NCBI RefSeq assembly: GCF_001677475.2
Contig: NZ_CP015229.1
DNA length: 64,000 bases
Strand: one strand, 5' to 3'
Origin: Escherichia coli
GTDB taxonomy: Bacteria > Pseudomonadota > Gammaproteobacteria > Enterobacterales > Enterobacteriaceae
Shown: one piece after another, positions 8,409-64,000 of the stretch
Layout: every line of letters begins with the position of its first letter
Numbering within the stretch: the stretch's first letter is position 1
Translations under genes and position numbers: made by a program
Notes under the pieces: generated by a model
The model's database searches: none
Told to the model about the DNA's origin: nothing
The model's input: the letters and a program-made list of their open reading frames with translations, nothing else

Positions 8409-8542
8409 ACTCTTCATCCTTCAATCTGTCTCTGCGTTGGCTGCGTTCTTTCACCCAAATCACTTACTACAGCATGCGCATCGGGATTCATTCTCTTGCC
8501 ATCTTGATACAGTTTGAATGATTTTGAGTATGACATTTTTAT

Positions 8543-9808
8543 TTAACCTGAACGACGACGATTACGCGGAGCGCCAGTACGACGCGGACCATTGCCTGTA
8601 CGCGGGCGCGTGAGGCGCAGCGGTTTAGGCAGATCGGTCATCAATGCGTCCGGATTGTATTTGCTTACCGGAATTGAGTGACCAATATAGGTCTCAATAG
8701 CAGGCAAATTCAATGCATACTCTTCACATGCCAGGCTGATGGAATGACCACTTGCGCCTGCACGACCTGTACGACCAATACGGTGAACGTAATCTTCACA
8801 GTCATCGGGTAAATCGTAGTTAAAGACGTGCGTCACAGCCGGGATATGCAGGCCACGCGCGGCAACGTCGGTGGCAACCAGAATATCCAGATCCCCACGG
8901 GTAAATTCATCAAGAATACGCAGACGTTTTTTCTGCGCGACATCGCCTGTCAACAAACCGACACGATGACCATCTGCCGCCAGGTGGCCCCAGATCTCTT
9001 CACAACGGTGTTTAGTGTTGGCGAAAATAATCGCTCTGTCTGGCCACTCTTCTTCGATCAGCGTTTGCAGCAAACGCATTTTTTCTTCGTTAGAAGGGTA
9101 GAAAAGCTCTTCTTTAATACGGTGGCCCGTTTTCTGTTCCGGTTCCACTTCAATATATTCGGCATTGTTCATCTGCTCGAACGCCAGTTCACGTACCCGG
9201 TACGAAAGCGTGGCGGAGAACAGCATGTTGAGGCGCTGGTTTGCAGGCGGCATACGGCGGAACAGCCAGCGGATATCTTTAATAAAGCCCAGATCGTACA
9301 TACGATCGGCTTCGTCCAGTACCACTACCTGAATGGCACCGAGGTTAATGTGGTTCTGCTTGGCGTAGTCAATTAAACGCCCCGTGGTGCCAATCAGAAT
9401 GTCAACGCCGCTTTCCAGCACTTTCAGCTGTTTGTCGTAGCCATCACCACCGTAAGCCAGACCCAGCTTCAGGCCGGTAGCATCCGCCAGCGGTTCCGCG
9501 TCGGCGTGGATCTGCACGGCAAGTTCACGCGTCGGTGCCATAATTAAGGCACGCGGTTGATTCACCTTGCGATCGGCAATCGCGGGATGAGAGAGAAGAT
9601 AATGAAACGTTGACGTAAGAAACGCCATCGTTTTCCCGGTACCGGTTTGCGCCTGCCCGGCTACGTCACGACCCGCCAGCGTCAGCGGAAGGGCCAGTGC
9701 CTGAATGGGCGTACAGTTATGAAACCCTTTTTTTTCAAGGGCTTCTACAACCTTCGGATGCAGGGCGAAGTCGGAAAACTTCTGTTCTGTTAAATGTGTT
9801 TTGCTCAT
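8543..9808 (-). CDS. rhlB: ATP-dependent RNA helicase RhlB (DEAD-box)
   Basis: 421-aa translation with DEAD-box motifs ([25 protein letters not shown]) and Arg-rich C-terminus. Confidence 0.95.
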
Positions 9809-9938
9809 AGTGTGGTAGAATATCAGCTTACTATTGCTTTACGAAAGCGTATCCGGTGAAATAAAGTCAACCTTTAGTTGGTTAATGTTACACCAACAAC
9901 GAAACCAACACGCCAGGCTTATTCCTGTGGAGTTATAT

Positions 9939-10268
9939 ATGAGCGATAAAATTATTCACCTGACTGACGACAGTTTTGACACGGATGTACTCAAAGCGGA
10001 CGGGGCGATCCTCGTCGATTTCTGGGCAGAGTGGTGCGGTCCGTGCAAAATGATCGCCCCGATTCTGGATGAAATCGCTGACGAATATCAGGGCAAACTG
10101 ACCGTTGCAAAACTGAACATCGATCAAAACCCTGGCACTGCGCCGAAATATGGCATCCGTGGTATCCCGACTCTGCTGCTGTTCAAAAACGGTGAAGTGG
10201 CGGCAACCAAAGTGGGTGCACTGTCTAAAGGTCAGTTGAAAGAGTTCCTCGACGCTAACCTGGCGTAA
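9939..10268 (+). CDS. trxA: Thioredoxin 1
   Basis: Translation from ATG 9939 [41 protein letters not shown]..., 109 aa, WCGPC active site. Confidence 0.97.
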
Positions 10269-10337
10269 GGGAATTTCATGTTCGGGTGCCCCGTCGCTAA
10301 AAACTGGACGCCCGGCGTGAGTCATGCTAACTTAGTG

Positions 10338-10366
10338 TTGACTTCGTATTAAACATACCTTATTAA
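10338..10366 (+). promoter_or_regulatory. Candidate sigma70 promoter for rhoL-rho (-35 ttgact, 17-nt spacer, -10 tattaa)
   Basis: Hexamers read directly from sequence upstream of the rho leader. Confidence 0.45.
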
Positions 10367-10408
10367 GTTTGAATCTTGTAATGTCCAACGCTTCCCGTTT
10401 TATCTTAA

Positions 10409-10510
10409 ATGCGAAGTGAACAGATTTCTGGCTCGTCACTCAATCCGTCTTGTCGTTTCAGTTCTGCGTACTCTCCTGTGACCAGGCAGCGAAAAGACAT
10501 GAGTCGATGA
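10409..10510 (+). CDS. rhoL: rho operon leader peptide (33 aa) within the rho attenuator region
   Basis: Hand translation atg cga agt gaa... gives MRSEQISGSSLNPSCRFSSAYSPVTRQRKDMSR; below the 60-aa cutoff of the ORF track. Confidence 0.8.
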   Translation: MRSEQISGSSLNPSCRFSSAYSPVTRQRKDMSR

Positions 10511-10594
10511 CCGTAAACAGGCATGGATGATCCTGCCATACCATTCACAACATTAAGTTCGAGATTTACCCCAAGTTTAAGAACTCACACCACT

Positions 10595-11854
10595 ATGAAT
10601 CTTACCGAATTAAAGAATACGCCGGTTTCTGAGCTGATCACTCTCGGCGAAAATATGGGGCTGGAAAACCTGGCTCGTATGCGTAAGCAGGACATTATTT
10701 TTGCCATCCTGAAGCAGCACGCAAAGAGTGGCGAAGATATCTTTGGTGATGGCGTACTGGAGATATTGCAGGATGGATTTGGTTTCCTCCGTTCCGCAGA
10801 CAGCTCCTACCTCGCCGGTCCTGATGACATCTACGTTTCCCCTAGCCAAATCCGCCGTTTCAACCTCCGCACTGGTGATACCATTTCTGGTAAGATTCGC
10901 CCGCCGAAAGAAGGTGAACGCTATTTTGCGCTGCTGAAAGTTAACGAAGTTAACTTCGACAAACCTGAAAACGCCCGCAACAAAATCCTCTTTGAGAACT
11001 TAACCCCGCTGCACGCAAACTCTCGTCTGCGTATGGAACGTGGTAACGGTTCTACTGAAGATTTAACTGCTCGCGTACTGGATCTGGCATCACCTATCGG
11101 TCGTGGTCAGCGTGGTCTGATTGTGGCACCGCCGAAAGCCGGTAAAACCATGCTGCTGCAGAACATTGCTCAGAGCATTGCTTACAACCACCCGGATTGT
11201 GTGCTGATGGTTCTGCTGATCGACGAACGTCCGGAAGAAGTAACCGAGATGCAGCGTCTGGTAAAAGGTGAAGTTGTTGCTTCTACCTTTGACGAACCCG
11301 CATCTCGCCACGTTCAGGTTGCGGAAATGGTGATCGAGAAGGCGAAACGCCTGGTTGAGCACAAGAAAGACGTTATCATTCTGCTCGACTCCATCACTCG
11401 TCTGGCGCGCGCTTACAACACCGTTGTTCCGGCGTCAGGTAAAGTGCTGACCGGTGGTGTGGATGCCAACGCCCTGCATCGTCCGAAACGCTTCTTCGGT
11501 GCGGCGCGTAACGTAGAAGAGGGCGGCAGCCTGACCATTATCGCGACGGCGCTTATCGATACCGGTTCTAAAATGGACGAAGTTATCTACGAAGAGTTTA
11601 AAGGTACAGGCAACATGGAACTGCACCTCTCTCGTAAGATCGCTGAAAAACGCGTCTTCCCGGCTATCGACTACAACCGTTCTGGTACCCGTAAAGAAGA
11701 GCTGCTCACGACTCAGGAAGAACTGCAGAAAATGTGGATCCTGCGCAAAATCATTCACCCGATGGGCGAAATCGATGCAATGGAATTCCTCATTAATAAA
11801 CTGGCAATGACCAAGACCAATGACGATTTCTTCGAAATGATGAAACGCTCATAA
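10595..11854 (+). CDS. rho: Transcription termination factor Rho
   Basis: Translation from ATG 10595 [40 protein letters not shown]..., 419 aa. Confidence 0.97.
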
Positions 11855-11872
11855 ATTTGTCTTATGCCAAAA

Positions 11873-11903
11873 ACGCCACGTGTTTACGTGGCGTTTTGCT
11901 TTT
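11873..11903 (+). terminator. Intrinsic terminator downstream of rho
   Basis: Stem acgccacgt / acgtggcgt with gttt loop followed by tttgctttt. Confidence 0.6.
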
Positions 11904-12093
11904 ATATCTGTAATCTTAATGCCGCGCTGGCAATGTTAGGAAAATTCCTGGATTTTGCTGGTGTGTTATGCAATTTGCATATCAAATGGTTAATTTTTGC
12001 ACAGGACTGGTGGGTTCGGAACGGACTTTCCCTTCTGAATAAAGGTCTTCGTGGTTATACTTCTGCTAATAATTTTCTCTGAGAGCATGCATT

Positions 12094-13197
12094 GTGAATT
12101 TACTGACAGTGAGTACTGATCTCATCAGTATTTTTTTATTCACGACACTGTTTCTGTTTTTTGCCCGTAAGGTGGCAAAAAAAGTCGGTTTAGTGGATAA
12201 ACCTAACTTCCGCAAACGTCACCAGGGATTGATACCTCTCGTTGGGGGGATTTCGGTTTACGCAGGGATTTGCTTCACGTTCGGAATTGTCGATTACTAT
12301 ATTCCGCATGCATCTCTCTATCTCGCTTGTGCCGGTGTGCTTGTTTTCATTGGCGCGCTGGATGACCGTTTTGATATCAGCGTAAAAATCCGTGCAACCA
12401 TACAGGCCGCTGTTGGCATTGTTATGATGGTGTTCGGCAAACTTTATCTCAGTAGCCTGGGTTATATCTTTGGCTCCTGGGAGATGGTGCTCGGACCGTT
12501 TGGCTACTTCCTGACGCTATTTGCCGTCTGGGCGGCCATTAATGCGTTCAACATGGTTGATGGCATTGATGGCTTGCTGGGCGGGTTGTCCTGCGTCTCG
12601 TTTGCAGCAATCGGTATGATTTTGTGGTTCGACGGGCAAACCAGCCTTGCAATCTGGTGTTTTGCGATGATCGCCGCCATCCTGCCATACATCATGCTTA
12701 ACCTTGGTATCCTGGGTCGCCGCTACAAAGTCTTTATGGGTGATGCGGGCAGTACGCTGATTGGTTTTACCGTTATCTGGATCCTGCTCGAAACGACCCA
12801 GGGCAAAACCCATCCCATCAGCCCGGTTACCGCTTTGTGGATAATCGCCATTCCGCTAATGGATATGGTGGCGATTATGTACCGTCGCCTGCGTAAAGGC
12901 ATGAGTCCGTTCTCTCCTGATCGCCAGCATATTCACCATTTGATCATGCGTGCCGGGTTTACTTCCCGCCAGGCGTTTGTGCTGATTACCCTTGCCGCAG
13001 CTCTGCTCGCCTCCATTGGGGTGCTGGCAGAATATTCTCATTTTGTCCCGGAGTGGGTCATGCTGGTGCTCTTTTTGCTAGCATTCTTCCTCTATGGATA
13101 TTGCATTAAGCGTGCCTGGAAAGTTGCTCGCTTTATTAAGCGCGTAAAACGCAGACTGCGTAGAAATCGTGGTGGCAGCCCCAATTTAACCAAATAA
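12094..13197 (+). CDS. wecA: UDP-GlcNAc:undecaprenyl-phosphate GlcNAc-1-phosphate transferase (ECA/O-antigen initiation)
   Basis: 367-aa polytopic membrane protein, GTG start, MNLLTVSTDLISIFLFTTLFLFFARKVAKKVGLVDKPNFRKRHQ... Confidence 0.95.
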   Translation: MNLLTVSTDLISIFLFTTLFLFFARKVAKKVGLVDKPNFRKRHQGLIPLVGGISVYAGICFTFGIVDYYIPHASLYLACAGVLVFIGALDDRFDISVKIRATIQAAVGIVMMVFGKLYLSSLGYIFGSWEMVLGPFGYFLTLFAVWAAINAFNMVDGIDGLLGGLSCVSFAAIGMILWFDGQTSLAIWCFAMIAAILPYIMLNLGILGRRYKVFMGDAGSTLIGFTVIWILLETTQGKTHPISPVTALWIIAIPLMDMVAIMYRRLRKGMSPFSPDRQHIHHLIMRAGFTSRQAFVLITLAAALLASIGVLAEYSHFVPEWVMLVLFLLAFFLYGYCIKRAWKVARFIKRVKRRLRRNRGGSPNLTK

Positions 13198-13208
13198 ATG
13201 AGGATGTG

Positions 13209-14255
13209 ATGACACAACCAATGCCTGGGAAACCGGCCGAAGACGCTGAAAATGAACTGGATATTCGTGGGTTGTTTCGTACCTTGTGGGCTGGGAAGCT
13301 ATGGATTATTGGCATGGGGCTGGCGTTTGCGTTAATCGCGCTGGCGTATACTTTTTTTGCTCGTCAGGAGTGGAGCTCGACGGCGATTACCGATCGTCCA
13401 ACGGTGAATATGCTGGGGGGATATTACTCGCAGCAGCAATTTTTGCGTAACCTGGATGTCCGTTCAAACATGGCTTCTGCCGACCAATCATCGGTCATGG
13501 ACGAAGCCTATAAAGAGTTTGTTATGCAACTGGCCTCGTGGGATACCCGCAGAGAGTTCTGGCTGCAAACCGACTATTACAAACAGCGGATGGTGGGCAA
13601 CAGCAAAGCCGATGCGGCGTTGCTGGATGAAATGATTAACAACATCCAGTTTATCCCCGGAGACTTTACCCGCGCGGTCAATGACAGCGTGAAGCTTATT
13701 GCCGAAACCGCGCCTGACGCTAATAACCTGTTACGTCAGTATGTTGCTTTTGCCAGCCAGCGTGCAGCCAGCCATCTGAATGATGAGCTGAAAGGCGCAT
13801 GGGCGGCACGCACCATCCAGATGAAAGCTCAGGTGAAGCGTCAGGAAGAGGTGGCGAAAGCCATCTACGACCGCCGGATGAACAGCATTGAGCAGGCGCT
13901 GAAAATTGCTGAGCAGCATAATATTTCGCGCAGTGCGACAGATGTGCCTGCCGAGGAATTACCTGATTCAGAAATGTTCCTGCTTGGGCGTCCAATGCTC
14001 CAGGCTCGACTGGAAAATTTACAGGCCGTCGGTCCGGCCTTTGATCTCGACTATGATCAGAATCGGGCCATGTTAAACACCCTGAATGTTGGTCCAACCC
14101 TGGATCCGCGTTTTCAGACCTATCGCTATTTGCGTACGCCGGAAGAACCGGTAAAACGCGATAGCCCACGTCGTGCCTTCCTGATGATTATGTGGGGCAT
14201 TGTCGGGGGGCTGATCGGGGCTGGTGTCGCATTAACCCGCCGTTGCTCGAAATAG
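13209..14255 (+). CDS. wzzE: ECA polysaccharide chain-length modulation protein
   Basis: Translation [37 protein letters not shown]..., Wzz-type topology. Confidence 0.93.
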
Positions 14256-14310
14256 CAACACTGCTGCGGTGAGCGCAAAGGCGCTCGCCGCTTATTCGAA
14301 GAGAATCGAT

Positions 14311-15441
14311 GTGAAAGTACTGACTGTATTTGGTACGCGCCCGGAAGCCATCAAGATGGCTCCGTTGGTGCATGCGTTGGCAAAAGATCCTTTTTTTGAG
14401 GCTAAAGTTTGCGTCACTGCGCAGCATCGGGAGATGCTCGATCAGGTGCTGAAACTCTTTTCCATTGTACCTGACTACGATCTCAACATAATGCAGCCAG
14501 GACAGGGCCTGACAGAGATAACCTGTCGGATTCTGGAAGGGCTAAAACCAATTCTTGCCGAGTTCAAACCAGACGTCGTGCTGGTTCACGGCGATACTAC
14601 GACGACGCTGGCAACCAGCCTGGCGGCGTTTTATCAGCGTATTCCTGTTGGTCACGTTGAGGCTGGTCTGCGCACGGGCGATCTCTATTCGCCGTGGCCG
14701 GAAGAGGCTAACCGTACATTGACCGGGCATCTGGCGATGTATCACTTCTCTCCAACCGAAACTTCCCGGCAAAACTTGCTGCGTGAAAATGTTGCTGACA
14801 GCCGAATCTTCATTACCGGTAATACAGTTATTGATGCACTGTTATGGGTGCGTGACCAGGTGATGAGCAGCGATACGCTGCGTTCAGAACTGGCGGCAAA
14901 TTACCCGTTTATCGACCCCAATAAAAAAATGATTCTGGTGACCGGTCACAGGCGTGAGAGCTTCGGTCGTGGCTTTGAAGAAATCTGCCATGCGCTGGCA
15001 GACATCGCCACCACGCATCAGGACATCCAGATTGTCTATCCAGTGCATCTCAACCCGAACGTCAGAGAGCCGGTCAATCGCATTCTGGGGCATGTGAAAA
15101 ATGTCATTCTGATCGATCCCCAGGAGTATTTACCGTTTGTCTGGCTGATGAACCACGCCTGGCTGATTTTGACCGACTCAGGCGGCATTCAGGAAGAGGC
15201 GCCTTCGCTGGGGAAACCGGTGCTGGTGATGCGCGATACCACTGAGCGTCCGGAAGCGGTGACGGCGGGTACGGTGCGTCTGGTAGGCACGGATAAGCAG
15301 CGAATTGTCGAGGAAGTGACGCGTCTTTTAAAAGACGAAAACGAATATCAAGCTATGAGCCGCGCCCATAACCCGTATGGTGATGGTCAGGCATGCTCTC
15401 GCATTCTGGAAGCGTTAAAAAATAATCGGATATCACTATGA
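14311..15441 (+). CDS. wecB: UDP-N-acetylglucosamine 2-epimerase
   Basis: Translation from GTG 14311 [23 protein letters not shown]..., 376 aa. Confidence 0.95.
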
Positions 15442-56177: not shown

Positions 56178-57077
56178 GTGGCGCTACTTATCATCACCAC
56201 GATTCTGTGGGCCTTCTCCTTTAGCTTTTATGGCGAGTACCTTGCGGGGCACGTCGATAGCTATTTTGCGGTGCTGGCGCGCGTTGGCCTGGCGGCACTC
56301 GTTTTTCTGCCGTTTCTGCGTACCCGTGGCAATAGCCTGAAAACAGTCGGCCTGTATATGCTGGTGGGCGCGATGCAGCTCGGCGTGATGTATATGCTGA
56401 GTTTCCGCGCCTATCTCTACCTGACGGTCTCTGAACTGCTGCTGTTTACCGTGCTGACGCCGCTCTACATCACGCTGATTTATGACATTATGAGCAGACG
56501 TCGTCTGCGCTGGGGCTATGCCTTTAGCGCCTTGCTGGCGGTGATTGGTGCCGGGATTATTCGCTATGATCAGGTCACCGACCATTTCTGGACTGGCTTG
56601 TTGCTGGTGCAACTCTCCAATATCACTTTTGCCATCGGCATGGTGGGTTACAAACGCCTGATGGAAACTCGCCCGATGCCGCAGCATAACGCCTTTGCGT
56701 GGTTCTATCTTGGCGCGTTCCTGGTGGCGGTAATTGCATGGTTCTTGCTGGGCAATACGCAGAAAATGCCGGAAACAACGCTGCAATGGGGCATTCTGGT
56801 ATTTCTTGGCGTGGTGGCTTCAGGGATTGGCTACTTTATGTGGAACTACGGCGCGACGCAGGTGGACGCCGGAACGCTCGGCATTATGAACAATATGCAC
56901 GTTCCGGCAGGGCTGCTGGTTAACCTGGCTATCTGGCACCAACAGCCGCACTGGCCAACGTTTATTACAGGCGCGCTGGTGATCCTGGCCTCACTGTGGG
57001 TGCATCGTAAGTGGGTCGCTCCGCGCTCTTCACAAACGGCAGATGATCGCAGGCGTGATTGCGCGCTGAGCGAATAA
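56178..57077 (+). CDS. yigM: DMT/EamA-family transporter (biotin transporter YigM/BioP)
   Basis: 299-aa 10-TM translation; 3' end overlaps the convergent metR by 113 nt. Confidence 0.85.
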
Positions 57078-57918
57078 ACGCTTCCGTAACTGGCTGACGC
57101 TGCTCTCCATCGCGCACGGCGGCGTAAAGTCGGCTCCACAAGCCTTCGCCCAGGGTTTTGGTCACCACCAGAACCTGGCGTTCAAAACTCTCTACTACCC
57201 AATGCGGTAGCGCGGCAATACCCATCCGCGCGGCAACCATCTGAATCAACAATAAGGTGTTATCGACGCTTTTCAGTGACGGGCTGACGCCTGCCGGCTG
57301 AAGAAAATGCCGCCAGACATCCAGTCGACTACGCTGTACCGGATAAATCAACAGCGTCTCGCTGGCTAGATCTTCCGGTGTAATTCGCGTTTTCGCCGCC
57401 AGTGGATGGTCAGGTGCTAACACCAGACGCACTTCATAATCGAACATCGGCGAATAATGCAGGCCACTGCGCGGCAGAATATCGGAGGTCATCACCAGAT
57501 CCAGCTCGCCCTGCTGCAACGCAGGCTGCGGGTCAAACGTTACGCCTGATTTAAAATCCATCTCGACCTGCGGCCAGTTCTTATGGAAATTTTCTAACGC
57601 GGGTGTCAGCCACTGAATACAGCTATGGCACTCAATGGCAATACGCAGGCGCGTTTGCTGCGGTTCATTGCAGGCTTGCAGTGCCTGACTGATTTGCGGC
57701 AGTACCTGGTTTGCCAGTTGCAATAGGATTTCTCCCTGCGGCGTAAAACGTAGCGGCTGGCTTTTACGCACAAATAGCCGGAAGCCAAGGCGTTGTTCCA
57801 GATCGCTAAACTGGTGAGACAGGGCGGATTGCGTCTGATGCAACGTCGCCGCAGCGGCTGCGAGCGAGCCGCAATTCCGCAACGCTTGTAGCGTTTTCAG
57901 GTGTTTTACTTCGATCAT
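56965..57918 (-). CDS. metR: LysR-family transcriptional activator of metE/metH
   Basis: 317-aa translation [63 protein letters not shown]...; divergent from metE. Confidence 0.95.
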
Positions 57919-58035
57919 GAAAGTCCTTCACTTCGGCATGAATAATTTGCGCTTGAGGAATATACAGTAACCGCCAATTATGGATGTGTAAACATCTGGA
58001 CGGCTAAATACTAAAAATTCCATAAGGGGCATATA
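57919..58035. promoter_or_regulatory. metR/metE divergent control region (MetR and MetJ sites expected)
   Basis: 117-nt spacer; contains aaacatctggacggctaaat with tandem met-box-like octamers (consensus AGACGTCT). Confidence 0.5.
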
Positions 58036-60297
58036 ATGACAATTCTTAATCACACCCTCGGTTTCCCTCGCGTTGGCCTGCGTCGCGAGCTGAAAAAAGC
58101 GCAAGAAAGTTATTGGGCGGGGAACTCCACGCGTGAAGAATTACTGGCAGTAGGGCGTGAATTGCGTGCTCGTCACTGGGATCAACAAAAGCAGGCGGGT
58201 ATCGACCTGCTGCCGGTGGGCGATTTTGCCTGGTACGATCATGTTCTGACCACCAGCCTGCTGCTGGGTAACGTTCCGGCGCGTCATCAGAATAAAGACG
58301 GTTCGGTGGATATCGACACCCTGTTCCGTATTGGTCGCGGTCGTGCGCCAACTGGTGAACCTGCGGCGGCGGCAGAAATGACCAAATGGTTTAACACCAA
58401 CTATCACTACATGGTGCCGGAATTCGTTAAAGGCCAACAGTTCAAACTGACCTGGACGCAGCTGCTGGATGAAGTAGACGAGGCGCTGGCGTTGGGTCAC
58501 AAGGTGAAACCTGTGCTTCTGGGGCCGGTTACCTGGCTGTGGCTGGGTAAGGTGAAAGGTGAACAGTTTGACCGCCTGAGCCTGCTGAACGACATTCTGC
58601 CGGTTTATCAGCAGGTTCTGGCAGAACTGGCCAAACGTGGTATTGAGTGGGTACAGATTGACGAACCGGCGCTGGTGCTGGAACTGCCGCAGGCGTGGCT
58701 GGATGCGTATAAACCTGCTTACGATGCACTCCAGGGGCAGGTGAAACTGCTGCTGACCACCTATTTTGAAGGTGTAACGCCAAACCTTGACACGATTACT
58801 GCGCTGCCTGTTCAGGGGCTGCATGTGGACCTTGTACATGGTAAAGATGACGTTGTTGAACTGCACAAGCGTTTGCCTTCTGACTGGTTGCTGTCTGCGG
58901 GTCTGATCAATGGTCGTAACGTCTGGCGCGCCGATCTCACCGAGAAATATGCGCAAATTAAGGACATTGTCGGCAAACGTGATTTGTGGGTGGCATCTTC
59001 CTGCTCACTGCTGCATAGCCCCATCGACCTGAGCGTGGAAACGCGTCTTGATGTAGAAGTGAAAAGCTGGTTTGCCTTCGCCCTACAAAAATGCCATGAA
59101 CTGGCACTGCTGCGCGATGCGCTGAACAGTGGTGACACGGCAGCTCTGGCAGAGTGGAGCGCCCCAATTCAGGCGCGTCGTCACTCAACCCGCGTACATA
59201 ATCCGGCGGTAGAAAAGCGTCTGGCAGCGATCACCGCCCAGGACAGCCAGCGTGAGAATGTCTATGAAGTGCGTGCCGAAGCTCAGCGTGCGCGTTTTAA
59301 ACTGCCAGCGTGGCCGACCACCACGATTGGTTCTTTCCCGCAAACCACGGAAATTCGTACCCTGCGTCTGGATTTCAAAAAGGGTAATCTCGACGCCAAC
59401 AACTACCGCACGGGCATTGCGGAACATATCAAGCAGGCCATTGTTGAGCAGGAACGTTTAGGACTGGATGTGCTGGTACATGGCGAGGCTGAGCGTAATG
59501 ACATGGTGGAATACTTTGGCGAGCACCTCGACGGGTTTGTCTTTACGCAAAACGGTTGGGTACAGAGCTACGGTTCCCGCTGCGTGAAGCCACCGATTGT
59601 TATTGGTGACGTTAGCCGCCCGGCACCGATTACCGTGGAGTGGGCGAAGTATGCGCAATCGCTGACCGACAAACCGGTGAAAGGGATGCTGACCGGCCCG
59701 GTGACGATTCTCTGCTGGTCGTTCCCGCGTGAAGATGTCAGCCGTGAAACCATCGCCAAACAAATTGCGCTGGCGCTGCGTGATGAAGTGGCGGACCTGG
59801 AAGCCGCAGGAATTGGCATCATCCAGATTGATGAACCGGCGCTGCGCGAAGGTTTACCGCTGCGTCGCAGCGACTGGGATGCCTATCTCCAGTGGGGCGT
59901 GGAGGCTTTCCGTATCAACGCCGCCGTGGCGAAAGATGACACACAAATCCACACTCACATGTGTTACTGCGAGTTCAACGACATCATGGATTCGATTGCT
60001 GCACTGGACGCAGACGTCATCACCATCGAAACCTCGCGTTCTGACATGGAGTTGCTGGAGTCGTTCGAAGAGTTTGATTATCCGAATGAAATCGGTCCAG
60101 GCGTCTATGACATTCACTCGCCAAACGTACCGAGCGTGGAATGGATTGAAGCCTTGCTGAAGAAAGCGGCAAAACGCATTCCGGCAGAGCGCCTGTGGGT
60201 CAACCCGGACTGTGGCCTGAAAACGCGCGGCTGGCCAGAAACCCGCGCGGCACTGGCGAACATGGTGCAGGCGGCGCAGAATTTGCGTCGGGGATGA
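58036..60297 (+). CDS. metE: Cobalamin-independent methionine synthase
   Basis: 753-aa translation [48 protein letters not shown]... Confidence 0.96.
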
Positions 60298-60333
60298 TGA
60301 ATATTAACGAGTCACTGTAAATTGCAGTACGAT

Positions 60334-60364
60334 AATGGCTTCCAGCACTGGAAGCCATTTTGCT
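60334..60364 (+). terminator. Intrinsic terminator after metE
   Basis: aatggcttcca / tggaagccatt stem followed by ttttgct. Confidence 0.65.
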
Positions 60365-60390
60365 ATGTGTGCTGGGTATTAAAAGGATTC

Positions 60391-61287
60391 TCAGGAACAG
60401 AAAATTAATTGCGGATTTCTTAAATATTCCATGCACCACTGGCAGGCTTTGCCCATACCATCGGAACGAGCGGCAAGAAATAACTTGGTGGCGTGTTTAT
60501 GTTCGCGCATTGGCTTTTTAAGCAATTTACCGCTGTTTAATAATGGCAATGCCAGATGATGTGGAATATAGCCAATACCGACGTTTTGTTCTATTAAGGC
60601 GATTGCCGTAGCGAAGTCAGGAACAAAAATGGGTTTTTGTCCTTCCAACAGCCAGGCTTGCATCGGGGGAAAGTTAACGGAGGTATCGCGGATACAAACC
60701 GCCGGATAATGACGCAATTCACTGTTTTCTAATGGATGCCGCTTCGCTGCCAGTGGGTGGAGTGGGCTGACGACAAAATCCCATTCCATTTGTCCGATCG
60801 GTTCGCTAATGATGCCTTCACTGCTTGGCACTGCATGAGGAGCACCGTAGACCAGATCGGCACGCTTACTGTACAGAGCATCCCAGCAGCCGTTGTATAC
60901 CTCAAGATCAACCGTCAGCGTTGTTGATGTGAATTGCCGTTCAAAATCTCGAATAAATGCCACCAGCAAATCACCAGGAATAATATTGTTCACCGCAATT
61001 GTTAGTTCACGCTCAATACCATCGTGAATCAGCACTGTGTTGCGCTTTAATGCTTCCAGGTCGCCAAGAATAGTTTTGCTATGTTCGATGAAGTAACTCC
61101 CCGCCGGAGATAATTCAATATAGCGTCCCTTACGAATGAACAGTTCAACGCCCAGGCTCTCTTCCGCTTTCTTGATGGTGTAACTGATGGCGGAAGGGAC
61201 TTTATTTAACTGCTCGGCTGCGGTGGTAATGCTCTGGTGTCTGGCGACCAGATGAATAACACGAAGCGTTTCGTCTGAGATGAACAT
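60391..61287 (-). CDS. LysR-family regulator, AllS-like (allantoin-regulon activator paralog)
   Basis: 298-aa translation MFISDETLRVIHLVARHQSITTAAEQLNKVPSAISYTIKKAEESLGVELF...; motifs NDGIERE...IAVNN, W-DFVVSPLHPLA, YPAVCIRD, GQKPIFVPD, GIGYIP resemble AllS as I remember it. Confidence 0.75.
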   Translation of the reverse strand: MFISDETLRVIHLVARHQSITTAAEQLNKVPSAISYTIKKAEESLGVELFIRKGRYIELSPAGSYFIEHSKTILGDLEALKRNTVLIHDGIERELTIAVNNIIPGDLLVAFIRDFERQFTSTTLTVDLEVYNGCWDALYSKRADLVYGAPHAVPSSEGIISEPIGQMEWDFVVSPLHPLAAKRHPLENSELRHYPAVCIRDTSVNFPPMQAWLLEGQKPIFVPDFATAIALIEQNVGIGYIPHHLALPLLNSGKLLKKPMREHKHATKLFLAARSDGMGKACQWCMEYLRNPQLIFCS

Positions 61288-61364
61288 AAGGCTCCCTGGT
61301 CAGTGGTAAAGTGGCTGAATCTCTCCAGATTCAGCCGTAATCATTGCTTGAGTATACTCAGGAA

Positions 61365-62588
61365 TTAGCGGCGTTGACTTGCCCGACTGAGAATCGCATA
61401 CGCGATACATGCCACCAGAATCGAGTCTACCGAAGGGATCGTCGTCAGGGTGAATAAGCCTTTGACGGTCATAAAGCCAACCGCTGCGCCTATGATCCAT
61501 GCCGCGAATGTCAGCACTTTAATCTGTGACTCCTGGGCTAACACTGACTCTTGATAGCCATTACGGCGATAAAGGAAAAAGTCAGCGATATAAATTCCGG
61601 CAACGGGTGGCGTGGCGATACCGAGGAACAGCAGAAACGGAATAAACCACGCCATAATATCCAGACTGCCTACGATGGCGGAAAGGATACCCAGCGCCAC
61701 GGTAATCTGCCATTTTGGAAAGCGGGTAAGCAGTGTGGAAACCACCAGCGTGCCCTGGAACATATTGCCCGCGTTACCGGTGACGCAGGCGAAAATCAAC
61801 AACAGCGCCGCGGGCAGAACCGCACCGAATACCGCCATAGCACCCAGTAAAGATCCCTGACCACTAATGGCGCTCGGCGTTGCACCCGCCCAGTAGAGCA
61901 GAGGGTAGGCAACCAGAAACGTCACGCTTGCGGCAATCAGCGCATGTTTGCGGTTATGCACAAAACTACCGAAATCAGGCAGTGTGGCAACCAGCACAAT
62001 AATGGTGCCAACAACGGTGGAAACGGCGACACCCGTATTCATCTCCACAATCGCCGCTGGTGCTGTCACTTCGGTATGGGTTGCCACATAGAGGATGTAA
62101 CACAGCACCAGCGCGATAACCGGCACGGCAACCTGGGCAATTTTTCCCAGAACGGCAAAACCAAATGCCGTAGAGGCGATAAAAATGACACAGCCAGCCG
62201 CCACTAACAGTGCTAGTGGAACTTCCAGTCCATGTTGAGCCAGTAAGTCATGTACCGAATGACCAAACATATTGGCGGTAACGGCAATCCAGCCGAACAG
62301 ACTTATCGCCATCAAAATGTTAATGGCGATGGCCCCTTTTTCGCCAAACGAATATTTCACAATGCCATACGTTGGCAGGCGGGCTTTTTCTCCCACGCTA
62401 ATAGTGATGGCTGAAAGTAAGGTCAGAATGACGCCGCCTAACAATACGACGCTAATTAAACTGCCGCTGGAAAGTTGATTGCCGAGGCTTGAGGATGACA
62501 ACAGCACAGGTGTGACGGCAATACCCAACAAAATCATGGCAATACGCAATCCTGATGCCGTATTCAGACTCTCTTCTTTTTTACGCAT
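61365..62588 (-). CDS. NCS1-family permease, CodB-like (cytosine/purine/ureide-type transporter)
   Basis: 407-aa polytopic membrane protein; blocks YSFGEKG, LPDFGSFVHNRK, PPVAGIYIADFFLYRR align with CodB FSFGVKG, TADFVRFGRNAK, PPVGGVIIADYLMNRR. Confidence 0.75.
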   Translation of the reverse strand: MRKKEESLNTASGLRIAMILLGIAVTPVLLSSSSLGNQLSSGSLISVVLLGGVILTLLSAITISVGEKARLPTYGIVKYSFGEKGAIAINILMAISLFGWIAVTANMFGHSVHDLLAQHGLEVPLALLVAAGCVIFIASTAFGFAVLGKIAQVAVPVIALVLCYILYVATHTEVTAPAAIVEMNTGVAVSTVVGTIIVLVATLPDFGSFVHNRKHALIAASVTFLVAYPLLYWAGATPSAISGQGSLLGAMAVFGAVLPAALLLIFACVTGNAGNMFQGTLVVSTLLTRFPKWQITVALGILSAIVGSLDIMAWFIPFLLFLGIATPPVAGIYIADFFLYRRNGYQESVLAQESQIKVLTFAAWIIGAAVGFMTVKGLFTLTTIPSVDSILVACIAYAILSRASQRR

Positions 62589-62613
62589 AGTATGTTCCCT
62601 TTAAAAATGCGCG

Positions 62614-63003
62614 TTACACAGTATGAAAATGCCCGGTGTATTTGCGCCAGCTACCCAGTTCTGTAATTTCCCGTTGGCCTTCTGTGAGCCAGTTTTCAGC
62701 CAGTACACCGAGCACTTCGCTACCATCGGCAAGTTTGATTTTGCCTATTGCCAGCCCGGCAGGTTCGCTCATTAACAGAGCGGCAAAACTGGCCAGCGGT
62801 AGTTGCCAAATTTCTACGTCGACGTGTGTTCCACCTTCATTCACGCGAATCATTCCTGGATGGCGATCGTTAATACTCCACAGCCGGTAATGGGCGTCAG
62901 TTCTGTCTTCACGGACAAAAATGCCGCCCGCTTTTTGCATATTTGGGTTAAGTTCCAGGCCGCGCATCAGTGTTCCGTTAACGGCTAAAAGCGTTGTAGT
63001 CAT
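62614..63003 (-). CDS. Stand-alone AIG2/GGCT-fold protein resembling the C-terminal domain of allophanate hydrolase
   Basis: 129-aa translation MTTTLLAVNGTLMRGLELNPNMQKAGG...AHYRLWSI...VDVEIWQLPLASFAALL...LAIGKIKLADGSEVLGVLAE...ELGSWRKY follows the conserved pattern of that domain as I remember it. Confidence 0.6.
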   Translation of the reverse strand: MTTTLLAVNGTLMRGLELNPNMQKAGGIFVREDRTDAHYRLWSINDRHPGMIRVNEGGTHVDVEIWQLPLASFAALLMSEPAGLAIGKIKLADGSEVLGVLAENWLTEGQREITELGSWRKYTGHFHTV

Positions 63004-63019
63004 TATGTTCTCCAGAAAA

Positions 63020-63976
63020 TTAAAGGGTTATCCATGTACCGCTCTGATGCGCCAGGGCCGCTTTTATGGTTTGCGGTGAGGTAATCAGGCCGCTGGCCTG
63101 TTTGCCTTGTTGCTGGCTGGTATTGATGAAATCAACAATGGCTTCCACTTTGGGTTGCATACTGCCGACACCAAATTGACCTTCCCGCAACAGTGTTTGC
63201 GCTTCGGCAACGCTAATGGCGTCGAGCCACTGTTGTTGTGGTGTACCAAAGTTAATCGCCACTTTTTCTACTCCGGTGGGTATCACCAGCAGATCCGCAC
63301 CTAACTGACTGGCGAGCAGCGCGGAGGCCAGATCTTTATCGATCACGGCTTCCACACCTTTCAGTTGTTGCCCGTCTCGCACCACCGGAATGCCGCCGCC
63401 GCCGCAGGCAATAACCAGATATCCCTGTCGCACCAGATGAGCGATGGTGTTGTGTTCAATAATTTCCAGTGGCGCAGGAGAGGGAACCGTACGCCGCCAC
63501 CCGCGCCCGGCATCCTCCATCAGAGTCCAGCCGAGCTGCTGCTGGCGTTGTTGGGCCGTTGCTTCATCGAGAAACGCGCCAATCGGTTTACTGGGGCTGG
63601 CGAAAGCATCGTCATGTGGGCTAACTCGCGTTTGTGTCACTAGCGCAATTACCGGTTTGTTTATGCCACGGCGAGCGAGTTCGTTATGCAGCGCCTTCTG
63701 GAACATGTAGCCAATTGCGCCTTGTGTATCACCCACGGCGTAATCAAGCGGAACCGGAGAAACTTCGTTACAAGCAAGTTCAGAGCGACGCAGAATAAAG
63801 CCCACCTGCGGTCCATTACCGTGGGTTAGCACCAGATCCCATCCGGCTTCAACCATATCAACGATATGCTGCACGCTTTCCATCACTGCAACATATTGAT
63901 CGGGAATACTATTGTGTTGATCGTCTTGAATGAGCGCATTGCCGCCAACCGCGACAACAGCCAGTGGCTTAACCAT
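63020..63976 (-). CDS. Carbamate kinase-family protein (YahI/YbcF/YqeA-like paralog)
   Basis: 318-aa translation MVKPLAVVAVGGNALIQDD...DLVLTHGNGPQVG...DTQGAIGYM...KPIGAF...EDAGRGWRR...ACGGGGIPVV...VIDKDL; SD aaaggag 7 nt upstream of ATG. Confidence 0.85.
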   Translation of the reverse strand: MVKPLAVVAVGGNALIQDDQHNSIPDQYVAVMESVQHIVDMVEAGWDLVLTHGNGPQVGFILRRSELACNEVSPVPLDYAVGDTQGAIGYMFQKALHNELARRGINKPVIALVTQTRVSPHDDAFASPSKPIGAFLDEATAQQRQQQLGWTLMEDAGRGWRRTVPSPAPLEIIEHNTIAHLVRQGYLVIACGGGGIPVVRDGQQLKGVEAVIDKDLASALLASQLGADLLVIPTGVEKVAINFGTPQQQWLDAISVAEAQTLLREGQFGVGSMQPKVEAIVDFINTSQQQGKQASGLITSPQTIKAALAHQSGTWITL

Positions 63977-64000
63977 GATGATTCTCCTTTGCGACGATCT

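What the first reader, a model, noticed from the sequence alone, without database searches (positions are those of the whole stretch)
62614..63003. Stand-alone allophanate-hydrolase C-terminal-like domain coupled to carbamate kinase
In allophanate hydrolase this small GGCT-fold domain is fused to an amidase. Here it is a free 129-aa protein, 16 nt downstream of a carbamate kinase gene and 25 nt upstream of a permease gene, which suggests translational coupling. A free domain next to a carbamate-consuming kinase suggests it could process an N-carboxy or N-carbamoyl intermediate, but no function can be read from the sequence.
Basis: inference. Interest (0 to 1): 0.5.

Follow-up and report, generated by a model that had tools for sequence, protein, structure and literature searches.

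The report
Free decarboxylase-like domain in triuret operon
The small gene is real and its protein has already been crystallised (E. coli c4763, function unknown); its conserved neighbours suggest it strips CO2 from unstable N-carboxy intermediates in a mobile operon that probably breaks down triuret, a uric-acid oxidation product found in urine, while making ATP.

Summary
A 129-aa ORF lies at 62614-63003 on the minus strand, 16 nt after a carbamate kinase gene and 25 nt before an NCS1 permease gene. It matches Pfam AH_C (E=1.8e-41). It is not new as an object: it is 100% identical to PDB 5C5Z (c4763 of uropathogenic E. coli, function unknown).

The operon runs past the window end. In E. coli relatives it reads cysteine hydrolase, DUF2877, FdrA, DUF1116, carbamate kinase, AH_C, permease, LysR. 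The hydrolase carries all six residues that separate triuret hydrolase (TrtA) from biuret hydrolase. FdrA/DUF1116/DUF2877 plus the kinase parallel AllFGH-AllK.

Across 80 species-level loci the kinase is the immediate upstream gene in 64, and the TrtA/BiuH-type hydrolase is the most constant partner (70). Natural fusions join AH_C to carbamate kinase and to BiuH.

The protein belongs to a distinct subfamily. The His of allophanate-hydrolase C domains is Leu, and an invariant Glu80 appears.

Best reading (inferred, about 0.45): it decarboxylates N-carboxylated ureides (carboxybiuret and/or allophanate) in an ATP-yielding triuret pathway.

The object is known. The pathway is an uncharacterised variant of known kinds.

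The parts
62614..63003 (-). AH_C-family stand-alone protein, 129 aa, identical to E. coli c4763 / PDB 5C5Z. It belongs to the 'VNGTLMRG / Glu80' subfamily.
   Evidence: ORF. Pfam PF21986 E=1.8e-41. 5C5Z 100% identity. AF2 model matches 5C5Z and the K. lactis AH C domain at TM 0.78. Subfamily-defining residues.
63004..63019 (-). 16-nt intergenic spacer carrying a GGAG ribosome-binding site (63010-63013), 6 nt before the ATG.
   Evidence: Read directly from the sequence. No terminator or promoter on the minus strand here.
63020..63976 (-). Carbamate kinase (arcC/AllK-like), 318 aa.
   Evidence: TIGR00746 365.5 bits, above the 358.25 cutoff. Immediate upstream gene of AH_C in 64 of 80 loci. Fused to AH_C in L071, L081 and P0125.
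63969..64000 (-). 3' end of the DUF1116 (AllG/YlbE-like) gene. It overlaps the kinase start by 8 nt and is cut by the window end.
   Evidence: By collinearity with E. coli SCU-172 locus L001, where the DUF1116 CDS ends 8 nt inside arcC.
61365..62588 (-). NCS1 / CodB-like permease, 407 aa. It is the predicted importer of the pathway substrate.
   Evidence: NCBIfam cytosine permease 148 bits, below its cutoff. Follows AH_C in 57 of 80 loci.
60391..61287 (-). LysR-type regulator, PunR/AllS-like, 298 aa. It is the last gene of the cassette.
   Evidence: NCBIfam PunR 287 bits and AllS 215 bits, both below their cutoffs. Found within 8 kb in 52 of 80 loci.

Best explanation
The gene encodes a free-standing GGCT-fold enzyme of the AH_C family. 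It most likely decarboxylates N-carboxylated ureides (R-CO-NH-COO-). In this operon those are carboxybiuret, allophanate, or both.

The cassette has eight genes: a TrtA-type cysteine hydrolase, AllH/AllF/AllG-like DUF2877/FdrA/DUF1116, carbamate kinase, AH_C, a CodB-like permease and a LysR regulator.

The proposed pathway has five steps:
1. The permease imports triuret.
2. The TrtA-type hydrolase converts triuret to carboxybiuret plus NH3.
3. The AllFGH-like complex phosphorolyses a carbamoyl group from carboxybiuret or biuret, giving carbamoyl phosphate.
4. Carbamate kinase makes ATP and carbamate.
5. AH_C irreversibly removes the N-carboxy group, either carboxybiuret to biuret or allophanate to urea. 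This pulls the pathway forward and disposes of an unstable intermediate.

Either placement of AH_C gives the same predicted overall result: triuret to about 2 NH3 + 2 CO2 + urea + 1 ATP.

What is shown: the gene, its fold, its family, the conserved operon, the domain fusions, the TrtA signature residues in the neighbouring hydrolase, and the His-to-Leu / Val-to-Glu switch. What is inferred: every enzymatic activity, the identity of the substrate, and Glu80 acting as the general acid in place of the His of allophanate-hydrolase C domains.
For: Family and fold:
- Pfam AH_C, 5C5Z identity, Foldseek TM 0.78 to the K. lactis allophanate hydrolase C domain.
- That domain was proposed to decarboxylate N-carboxycarbamate (Fan et al. 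2013 J Biol Chem 288:21422, from memory), which is the same reaction type.

Operon conservation:
- The order hydrolase-DUF2877-FdrA-DUF1116-CK-AH_C-permease is kept across Enterobacterales, Burkholderiales, Neisseriales, Vibrionales, Xanthomonadales and alpha-proteobacteria.

The neighbouring hydrolase:
- It is closest to TrtA 6XIX (E=9e-80, 58.7% identity) and BiuH (E=1e-69), and far from RutB.
- It has the TrtA residue at all six published discriminating positions, F35 N41 A134 E160 Y187 I205 (PMC7948467), in 69 of 77 copies.

Other contexts:
- Verrucomicrobial loci have trtA-type + permease + biuH-type + AH_C with no FdrA or kinase. This ties AH_C to the hydrolase products.
- Other loci place AH_C beside urea/guanidine carboxylase with UAAP1/2, which produce allophanate.

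Fusions:
- AH_C::BiuH (BiuH model 394.6 bits, above the 370 cutoff), IHL::AH_C, AH_C::BiuH::TrtA-like, GGT-like::AH_C and CK::AH_C.

Absence of an alternative decarboxylase:
- TrtB, the known carboxybiuret decarboxylase, is an unrelated AtzH/HpxZ-type protein. The annotated eight-gene E. coli cassette lists no such gene. Comammox clusters that carry allFGHK are reported to lack trtB (PMC12625717).

Precedent for the phosphorolytic module:
- AllFGH is oxamic transcarbamylase and AllK a catabolic kinase (PMC11326118, PMC9843812).

Constraint on the gene:
- 48 invariant residues across 18 diverse homologues, and 18 synonymous against 0 non-synonymous differences from E. coli SCU-172.
Against: - No activity has been measured for this protein or for any gene of the cassette.
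- The proposed catalytic His of allophanate-hydrolase C domains (K. lactis His492) is Leu12 here, so the chemistry may differ.
- For AtzF, the C domain was reported to have no relevant catalytic role and to organise quaternary structure instead (Balotra et al. 2015, from memory; truncation data in PMC3944691).
- If the AllFGH-like complex phosphorolysed carboxybiuret and then allophanate, no decarboxylase would be needed.
- A decarboxylase ending in urea wastes half of the nitrogen in urease-negative E. coli.
- I could not decide between carboxybiuret and allophanate as the substrate. Homologues next to urea carboxylase, where no carboxybiuret is made, are still about 64% identical, which favours allophanate. 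The amidase-then-decarboxylase logic favours carboxybiuret.
- The TrtA-type gene lies outside the window, so its presence in this genome is assumed from relatives.
Confidence: 0.45

Rival explanations
1. It is a non-catalytic partner. The protein would bind an unstable N-carboxy intermediate, or bridge the hydrolase, the AllFGH-like complex and the kinase, so that intermediates are channelled. This is what was proposed for the C domain of AtzF.
For: AtzF lacking its C domain keeps full activity but changes oligomeric state (PMC3944691). The AtzF C domain was reported as structural (Balotra et al. 2015, from memory). The His of the AH-type domain is absent. Very high conservation across phyla (48 of 129 invariant) is typical of obligate complex subunits. 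Fusions to several different partners fit an adaptor role.
Against: The invariant residues include many polar and charged ones (R14, N19, N21, R31, D36, R40, D46, H48, R53, E64, E80, K88, E103, E112, R120), plus a GGACT-like VNGTLMRG motif. That pattern looks like an active site. The K-12 AllFGH-AllK module works without such a protein (PMC11326118). The protein also occurs where there is no FdrA or kinase to bridge.
Confidence: 0.2
2. It does exactly what the allophanate-hydrolase C domain was proposed to do, converting N-carboxycarbamate to carbamate plus CO2. It would act as one half of a 'split' allophanate hydrolase in which a cysteine hydrolase replaces the amidase-signature domain.
For: Homology to the AH C domain. 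The cysteine hydrolase plus AH_C pair is the conserved core, and the two are fused in both orders. That mirrors the amidase plus AH_C architecture.
Against: The hydrolase next to it has the TrtA signature. Herbaspirillum TrtA is reported as highly specific for triuret, and carboxybiuret was not hydrolysed further in NMR time courses (PMC7948467). His492 is not conserved. Stand-alone proteins with the true AH-type 'GAH' motif exist separately (P0218, P0260), so this subfamily is something else.
Confidence: 0.12
3. It acts on the kinase product. It would be a carbamate decarboxylase that speeds breakdown of carbamate to NH3 and CO2 and so pulls the carbamate kinase reaction. This is the closest form of the first reader's idea.
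For: It lies immediately downstream of the kinase in 64 of 80 loci. CK::AH_C fusion proteins occur in at least two assemblies and one protein cluster.
Against: Carbamate decomposes spontaneously and fast (general chemistry). The K-12 allK, yahI and rut systems have no such protein. AH_C persists next to TrtA/BiuH-type hydrolases and next to urea carboxylase where no kinase is encoded nearby.
Confidence: 0.1
4. It supports urea utilisation in the urinary tract through an allophanate-hydrolase-like route, as the authors of the crystal structure suggested. A related alternative is that it is a gamma-glutamyl(amine) cyclotransferase.
For: Structural similarity to the AH C domain and to GGCT/GGACT. 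The urea idea is cited in PMC7558591. The motif VNGTLMRG resembles VYGTLKRG of GGACT.
Against: The cassette has no urea carboxylase and no amidase-signature domain. The Pfam GGACT match is marginal (E=0.0012) and hhalign to GGACT is weak (E=0.027). All conserved neighbours deal with ureides and carbamoyl phosphate, not gamma-glutamyl compounds.
Confidence: 0.04

Closest known systems
c4763 of uropathogenic E. coli (PDB 5C5Z; Kim, Choi, Kim & Kim 2015, Acta Cryst F 71:1042)
   Same: Identical sequence over all 129 residues. The AF2 model superposes on it. This is the same protein.
   Different: Nothing at the protein level. The window DNA differs from E. coli alleles by 4.6%, all of it synonymous. 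The published work left the function open and suggested urea utilisation (cited in PMC7558591; the paper itself is not held).
C-terminal domain of allophanate hydrolase (K. lactis 4ISS/5I8I, G. bethesdensis 4GYR/4GYS, AtzF)
   Same: Same Pfam family and fold, about 27% identity, TM 0.78. Shared invariant core: A7 V8 G10 T35 Y39 P49 R53 E64 W66 E103 W119 R120. Both are associated with enzymes that hydrolyse the terminal amide of a ureide.
   Different: It is free-standing, and no amidase-signature domain is encoded nearby. The 'GAH' His (K. lactis His492) is Leu12. The AH-type Ile/Val is an invariant Glu80. Further switches are N9, T11, G83, V100, Q110 and E112. The partner amidase has an unrelated fold (isochorismatase-like cysteine hydrolase).
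TrtB / AtzH / HpxZ (NTF2-like decarboxylases of carboxybiuret, 1,3-dicarboxyurea and N-carboxy-oxamate)
   Same: The proposed role is the same: removing CO2 from the N-acylcarbamate left by a ureide amidase. The genomic logic is also the same, next to trtA/biuH (PMC7948467; PMC12625717).
   Different: No homology. TrtB groups with AtzH and HpxZ, whereas this protein has the GGCT fold. If the role is confirmed, it would be a non-homologous replacement.
Triuret pathway of Herbaspirillum sp. BH-1 (trtA, trtB, biuH, atzF)
   Same: The first gene of the cassette in relatives has the complete TrtA residue signature and is 58.7% identical to TrtA. A transporter of the nucleobase type is present.
   Different: BiuH, TrtB and AtzF are absent. 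In their place are an AllFGH-like complex, carbamate kinase and AH_C. BiuH-type hydrolases appear only in AH_C loci that lack FdrA and the kinase.
Oxamic transcarbamylase AllFGH with catabolic carbamate kinase AllK of E. coli K-12 (and the paralogous yahEFG-yahI cluster)
   Same: The same four-gene module: FdrA, DUF1116, DUF2877 and carbamate kinase. The paralogues are 40-47% identical according to PMC12928451. An ATP-yielding phosphorolysis of a ureido group is expected.
   Different: The K-12 clusters, as I know them, contain neither a TrtA-type hydrolase nor an AH_C protein (not checked here). The substrate is presumably not oxalurate.
Gamma-glutamyl cyclotransferase / GGACT (AIG2-like) enzymes
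   Same: Same fold (TM 0.5-0.6). An N-terminal xGTLxRG motif is present, and there is an invariant Glu close to where GGACT has its catalytic Glu82.
   Different: The sequence match is marginal. The Glu is offset by two positions in the only alignment obtained. No gamma-glutamyl metabolism genes lie nearby.

Membership tests
Pfam AH_C (PF21986), allophanate hydrolase C-terminal domain family | Significant full-length match to the family profile | tested here: met
   E=1.8e-41, residues 5-123 against model positions 2-122 of 123. NCBIfam AH models match only their last ~125 positions.
Pfam AH_C / GGCT-like fold | GGCT-like beta-barrel fold, superposable on solved AH C domains | tested here: met
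   AF2 model (pLDDT 79.8) hits 5C5Z (100% identity), the K. lactis AH C domain at TM 0.78, and GGCT/GGACT at TM 0.5-0.6.
Allophanate hydrolase (EC 3.5.1.54) | Amidase-signature N domain fused to, or encoded with, the C domain | tested here: not met
   The protein is 129 aa and free-standing. No amidase-signature gene is present in the eight-gene cassette in E. coli chromosomes or plasmids. Whole-protein scores of 99-105 bits are far below the AH cutoffs of 487-511.
Allophanate hydrolase C domain (catalytic type) | Conserved His of the 'V-G-A-H' motif (K. lactis His492, proposed catalytic residue; its role is recalled from Fan et al. 2013) | tested here: not met
   The numbering was verified from the 5I8I alignment (K485...H492). 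The position is Leu in 28 of 28 c4763-type proteins and His in 14 of 15 AH-type C domains.
Allophanate hydrolase C domain (catalytic type) | Decarboxylation of N-carboxycarbamate | not testable with these tools
   This needs an enzyme assay.
GGCT / GGACT cyclotransferases | YGxL substrate-binding motif plus a catalytic Glu (Glu82 in human GGACT) | tested here: inconclusive
   VNGTLMRG aligns with VYGTLKRG. Invariant Glu80 lies 2 positions from the residue aligned to Glu82, in a weak hhalign match (E=0.027). Pfam GGACT scores E=0.0012.
TrtB / AtzH / HpxZ carboxybiuret-type decarboxylases | Homology to the NTF2-like AtzH/HpxZ family | tested here: not met
   TrtB is placed in one tree with AtzH and HpxZ (supplement of PMC12625717). 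This protein matches only AH_C/GGACT profiles. Any shared role would be by analogy.
Triuret catabolic gene cluster | A TrtA-type hydrolase: catalytic D-K-C triad and the six TrtA-versus-BiuH residues F35 N41 A134 E160 Y187 I205 | tested here: met
   The pattern D F F N .. A E C Y Q I is identical to TrtA 6XIX in the E. coli cassette and in 69 of 77 hydrolase copies next to AH_C. The gene lies outside the window, so this was tested in relatives.
Triuret catabolic gene cluster | Downstream enzymes BiuH, TrtB and AtzF | tested here: not met
   They are absent from the E. coli cassette. A BiuH-type copy is present only in verrucomicrobial loci.
AllFGH-AllK type carbamoyl-phosphate-forming module | FdrA + DUF1116 + DUF2877 genes together with a carbamate kinase gene | tested here: met
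   RefSeq annotation and NCBIfam (FdrA 496.6 bits, above the 433 cutoff; arcC above its cutoff). Present in 64-66 of 80 loci. Activity and substrate were not tested.

The most novel reading that the evidence does not exclude
The cassette encodes a previously undescribed, phosphorolytic and ATP-yielding route for triuret, or a related product of uric-acid oxidation. It is carried on the chromosome of about 29% of complete E. coli genomes and on ColV-type conjugative plasmids. Within it, the c4763-type protein would be a new mechanistic class of N-acylcarbamate decarboxylase: GGCT fold, with Glu80 in place of the His of allophanate hydrolase. It would replace TrtB/AtzH non-homologously and act together with an AllFGH-like carbamoyltransferase that accepts carboxybiuret or biuret.
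Probability: 0.3. Interest if true: 0.7.

Novelty: new variant of a known kind. Interest (0 to 1): 0.45.

Why it matters
c4763 was singled out as a protein specific to uropathogenic E. coli and was crystallised, but its function remained unknown. The context analysis turns it into a concrete and inexpensive set of experiments.

Triuret forms from uric acid and peroxynitrite and has been detected in human urine (PMC7948467). An operon that imports it and extracts nitrogen and ATP would be a plausible fitness trait for extraintestinal and avian pathogenic strains. The operon's presence on conjugative ColV plasmids fits that idea.

There are biochemical consequences as well. It would assign substrates to a second AllFGH-type carbamoyltransferase. 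It would settle whether AH_C domains are catalytic, which is disputed between the K. lactis and AtzF studies. It would also explain the collocation of biuH/trtA with allFGHK and codB noted, but not explained, in nitrifier genomes (PMC12625717).

If the prediction fails, the protein is still a well-conserved orphan with a solved structure.

Tried and rejected
- **TrtB homology.** I asked whether the protein is TrtB, the known carboxybiuret decarboxylase. It is not. TrtB belongs with AtzH and HpxZ.
- **RutB-like pyrimidine hydrolase.** A genome paper suggested this for the neighbouring hydrolase (PMC12928451). I rejected it: RutB scores E=4e-29 against 9e-80 for TrtA, and all TrtA signature residues are present.
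- **Catalytic Glu equivalence.** I tried to show that Glu80 equals the catalytic Glu of GGACT by profile alignment. The match was too weak (E=0.027, two-residue offset), so this stays inconclusive.
- **Split allophanate hydrolase.** I looked for an amidase-signature gene near AH_C in the urea-carboxylase loci L080 and L078. None was found within the fetched DNA.
- **The ~530-aa permease.** Pfam and NCBIfam scans of the permease that replaces CodB in Phytobacter and Verrucomicrobia gave nothing.
- **Literature.** The c4763 structure paper (PMC4528939), Aukema et al. 2020 (PMC6952224), Fan et al. 2013 and Balotra et al. 2015 are not held. Statements from them rest on memory or on citing papers. 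Searches for the neighbouring CFT073 locus tags, and for triuret together with FdrA or carbamate kinase, found nothing beyond PMC12625717 and PMC7948467.
- **Promoters and terminators.** The scan showed nothing on the minus strand inside the operon.
- **Not attempted.** I did not run a TrtA-anchored survey, which would show whether such clusters ever lack AH_C.
Full report
**Observation**

It begins 16 nt after the stop of a 318-aa carbamate kinase gene (63020-63976) and ends 25 nt before a 407-aa permease gene (61365-62588). A LysR regulator gene follows at 60391-61287, and all four genes are on the minus strand. A GGAG ribosome-binding site lies 6 nt before the ATG. No terminator-like or promoter-like site was found on the minus strand between the genes.

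Pfam places residues 5-123 in AH_C (PF21986, E=1.8e-41), with a marginal GGACT match (E=0.0012). NCBIfam allophanate hydrolase models match only through their last ~125 positions. The neighbours are a carbamate kinase (TIGR00746, above cutoff) and an NCS1/CodB-like permease. The regulator is PunR/AllS-like.

**The protein is already known as an object**

A sequence search of the PDB returned chain 5C5Z_A, identical over all 129 residues. Foldseek lists that entry as 'Crystal structure analysis of c4763, a uropathogenic E. coli-specific protein', released in 2015. The paper itself is not held. A citing paper summarises it as a homologue of allophanate hydrolase with a suggested role in urea breakdown (PMC7558591).

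An AlphaFold model built from 18 homologues (pLDDT 79.8) matches three groups in order:
- 5C5Z;
- the C domain of K. lactis allophanate hydrolase / urea amidolyase (TM 0.78, 27% identity);
- gamma-glutamyl cyclotransferases (TM 0.5-0.6).

RefSeq already names the protein 'allophanate hydrolase-related protein'.

**The operon continues beyond the window**

In E. coli SCU-172 the same region is an eight-gene insertion between metE and ysgA. On one strand it reads:
1. cysteine hydrolase
2. DUF2877
3. FdrA
4. DUF1116
5. carbamate kinase
6. AH_C
7. cytosine-permease-like transporter
8. LysR regulator

The last 32 nt of the window are the 3' end of the DUF1116 gene. The cassette occurs in 1555 of 5426 complete E. 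coli genomes. It has been noted before as 'GR 29' of strain BEN2908, where it was read as pyrimidine-related (PMC12928451).

FdrA/DUF1116/DUF2877 are the families of AllF/AllG/AllH, the oxamic transcarbamylase that converts oxalurate and phosphate to carbamoyl phosphate and oxamate. AllK is the catabolic carbamate kinase that then makes ATP (PMC11326118, PMC9843812). In this kind of module the kinase therefore releases carbamate rather than consuming it.

**Conservation of the neighbourhood**

The stand-alone protein has thousands of close relatives:
- 4749 hits in the word-indexed database, 60-90% identical across several phyla;
- 1464 clusters at 50% identity with E<=1e-3.

A scan of one genome per species found 454 confirmed relatives, and the best 80 loci were fetched. 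Using the E. coli cassette proteins as tblastn queries, I counted partners within 8 kb of AH_C:

| Partner | Loci (of 80) |
|---|---|
| cysteine hydrolase | 70 |
| carbamate kinase | 66 |
| DUF1116 | 66 |
| FdrA | 64 |
| permease | 57 |
| LysR regulator | 52 |

Eleven loci have less than 6 kb of upstream DNA, so these counts are minima.

The kinase is the immediate upstream gene in 64 loci. The gap has a median of 36 nt and ranges from an 8-nt overlap to 271 nt. Co-transcription is well supported. Translational coupling in the strict sense is not.

**The hydrolase is the key neighbour**

The cassette's cysteine hydrolase is most similar to three solved enzymes, in this order:
- triuret hydrolase TrtA (6XIX, E=9e-80; 58.7% identity);
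- biuret hydrolase BiuH (6AZO, E=1e-69);
- RutB, much more weakly (E=4e-29).

It scores below the NCBIfam BiuH cutoff (279.8 against 370 bits).

Tassoulas et al. list six positions that separate TrtA from BiuH: F35, N41, A134, E160, Y187 and I205 in TrtA against Y, Y, S, D, T (and, in the copies seen here, V) in BiuH (PMC7948467). After mapping the numbering through the 6XIX alignment, the E. coli protein and 69 of 77 hydrolase copies found next to AH_C carry the full TrtA pattern.

In verrucomicrobial loci there are two hydrolase genes, one TrtA-type and one with the complete BiuH pattern. They are arranged trtA-type, a ~530-aa permease, biuH-type, AH_C, with no FdrA or kinase. BiuH-type copies occur only in loci that lack the FdrA/kinase module.

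In a few verrucomicrobial and cyanobacterial loci, AH_C instead sits beside urea/guanidine carboxylase, the associated UAAP1/UAAP2 proteins and an ABC transporter. These enzymes also generate allophanate.

**Fusions**

Representative homologues include proteins in which the c4763-type domain is fused to another enzyme:
- carbamate kinase (P0125, 458 aa);
- a bona fide BiuH (P0136; BiuH model 394.6 bits, above the 370 cutoff);
- another isochorismatase-like hydrolase, in the opposite order (P0132);
- BiuH plus a TrtA-like domain (P0202);
- a gamma-glutamyltransferase-family hydrolase (P0225).

The kinase fusion is an uninterrupted ORF in two fetched assemblies, L071 and L081.

The domain is thus repeatedly coupled to enzymes that hydrolyse the terminal amide of a ureide and leave an N-carboxy product. 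That is the same logic as amidase plus C domain in allophanate hydrolase. It is also coupled to the kinase.

**A distinct subfamily**

I aligned 28 stand-alone relatives with 15 AH-type C domains. The two groups share a core: A7, V8, G10, T35, Y39, P49, R53, E64, W66, E103, W119 and R120. They differ at several fixed positions:

| Position | Stand-alone (c4763-type) | AH-type C domain |
|---|---|---|
| 9 | N | V/C |
| 11 | T | A |
| 12 | L | H |
| 80 | E | I/V |
| 83 | G | P |
| 100 | V | F |
| 110 | Q | A |
| 112 | E | D |

Position 12 corresponds to K. lactis His492. The numbering was checked through the 5I8I alignment. From memory of Fan et al. 2013, this is the residue proposed to be catalytic in the C domain.

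Free proteins with the AH-type 'GAH' motif also exist (P0218, P0260). The c4763 type is therefore not simply a detached allophanate-hydrolase domain.

Its N-terminal motif VNGTLMRG resembles VYGTLKRG of GGACT. Its invariant Glu80 lies two positions from where the catalytic Glu82 of GGACT aligns, but that alignment is weak (E=0.027). I treat the equivalence as unproven.

**Mechanism proposed**

The chemistry common to all contexts is an N-acylcarbamate, R-CO-NH-COO-:
- carboxybiuret, from TrtA;
- allophanate, from BiuH, from urea/guanidine carboxylase systems, or from phosphorolysis of carboxybiuret;
- N-carboxycarbamate, in allophanate hydrolase.

Carboxybiuret loses CO2 spontaneously with a half-life of about 20 min. 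In other bacteria the unrelated TrtB speeds this step (PMC7948467). No TrtB-type gene is annotated in the E. coli cassette. Comammox clusters with allFGHK are reported to lack trtB (PMC12625717).

I therefore propose that the protein is a decarboxylase of N-carboxylated ureides within a triuret operon. The steps would be:
1. uptake by the permease;
2. triuret to carboxybiuret plus NH3 by the TrtA-type hydrolase;
3. carbamoyl transfer to phosphate by the AllFGH-like complex;
4. ATP formation by the kinase;
5. irreversible CO2 removal by AH_C.

I cannot decide where AH_C acts. One option is before the transferase (carboxybiuret to biuret). The other is after it (allophanate to urea).

- Three observations lean towards allophanate: gene order, the kinase fusion, and the ~64% identity of homologues in urea-carboxylase loci.
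- The amidase-then-decarboxylase pattern leans towards carboxybiuret.

Both placements predict the same overall stoichiometry, with urea as an end product. All activities are inferred.

**Rivals**

- **Non-catalytic adaptor or channelling role.** This remains plausible because the AtzF C domain was reported to be structurally rather than catalytically important (truncation data in PMC3944691; Balotra et al. 2015 from memory).
- **Split allophanate hydrolase acting on N-carboxycarbamate.** This is weakened by the TrtA signature of the hydrolase and by the missing His.
- **Carbamate decarboxylase tied to the kinase.** This fits the fusion. It does not fit the kinase-free contexts, and carbamate decays quickly without an enzyme.
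- **Urea utilisation or gamma-glutamyl cyclotransferase activity.** Neither has support from the neighbourhood.

**Novelty and interest**

The object is known: a solved structure, a Pfam family and a RefSeq name. Three things appear undescribed in the literature I could search:
- the assignment of the neighbouring hydrolase as TrtA-type;
- the recurrent TrtA + AllFGHK-like + AH_C architecture with its fusions;
- the His/Glu switch that defines the subfamily.

One metagenomic paper notes the collocation of biuH/trtA with allFGHK and codB without explaining it (PMC12625717).

Triuret is reported in human urine and arises from uric acid and peroxynitrite (PMC7948467). That gives a rationale for a cassette first flagged as specific to uropathogenic strains, which is also carried on ColV plasmids of avian pathogenic E. 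coli.

I rate it a new variant of known kinds, of moderate interest and readily testable.

Noticed in passing
window 60391-64000; L082 (pAPEC-O2-211A-ColV) 7033-15211: The whole eight-gene cassette is also carried on large conjugative plasmids. It was found on 82 E. coli plasmids at about 91-94% identity. One example is a ColV IncFIB/IncFIC plasmid of avian pathogenic E. coli, where it lies near an IS1 element. More distant copies are on Citrobacter, Klebsiella and Enterobacter plasmids. The module is mobile.
   Followed up: partly
window 56965-63976 compared with L001: The window DNA differs from every complete E. coli genome by about 5% in metE, metR, the carbamate kinase gene and the AH_C gene, almost all of it synonymous. 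It differs by only about 2% in the permease and LysR genes. This suggests a divergent Escherichia lineage and a recombination break inside the cassette.
   Followed up: partly
L071 9011-10390; L081 2276-3652; P0125: Carbamate kinase and the AH_C domain are translated as one ~458-aa fusion protein in a Burkholderiaceae MAG and a Verrucomicrobia MAG. The two fusion proteins are very similar to each other, so the taxonomic binning or a horizontal transfer deserves a look.
   Followed up: partly
P0202 (644 aa), P0136, P0132, P0225, P0128, P0145, P0168: The c4763-type domain is fused to many partners. These include BiuH, a BiuH plus TrtA-like pair in which the usual catalytic Cys position reads Gly-Cys, a gamma-glutamyltransferase-family hydrolase, a cupin/ChrR-like domain, a flavodoxin-like domain, and membrane proteins of unknown function.
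   Followed up: partly
L057 10398-11996; L059, L063, L065, L069, L077 (the ~530-aa ORF between or next to the hydrolase genes): A ~530-aa polytopic membrane protein takes the place of the CodB-like permease next to AH_C in Phytobacter and Verrucomicrobia. It has no Pfam or NCBIfam match. It may be an undescribed transporter family for ureides.
   Followed up: partly
L080 8614-12699; L078 2102-6744: In Chthoniobacter and Chamaesiphon the stand-alone AH_C gene sits next to urea/guanidine carboxylase, UAAP1/2 and an ABC transporter. No amidase-signature allophanate hydrolase lies in the fetched flanks. How allophanate is disposed of there is unclear.
   Followed up: partly
P0218, P0260: Free-standing ~125-134-aa proteins with the allophanate-hydrolase-type 'GAH' motif also exist. 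These are true split C domains, distinct from the c4763 type. Their genomic contexts were not examined.
   Followed up: no
window 56178-57077 (+) and 56965-57918 (-): The 3' ends of the bioP (yigM) and metR genes overlap by about 110 nt on opposite strands, in the window and in the E. coli annotation. This is an ordinary feature of the locus and is recorded only for completeness.
   Followed up: no
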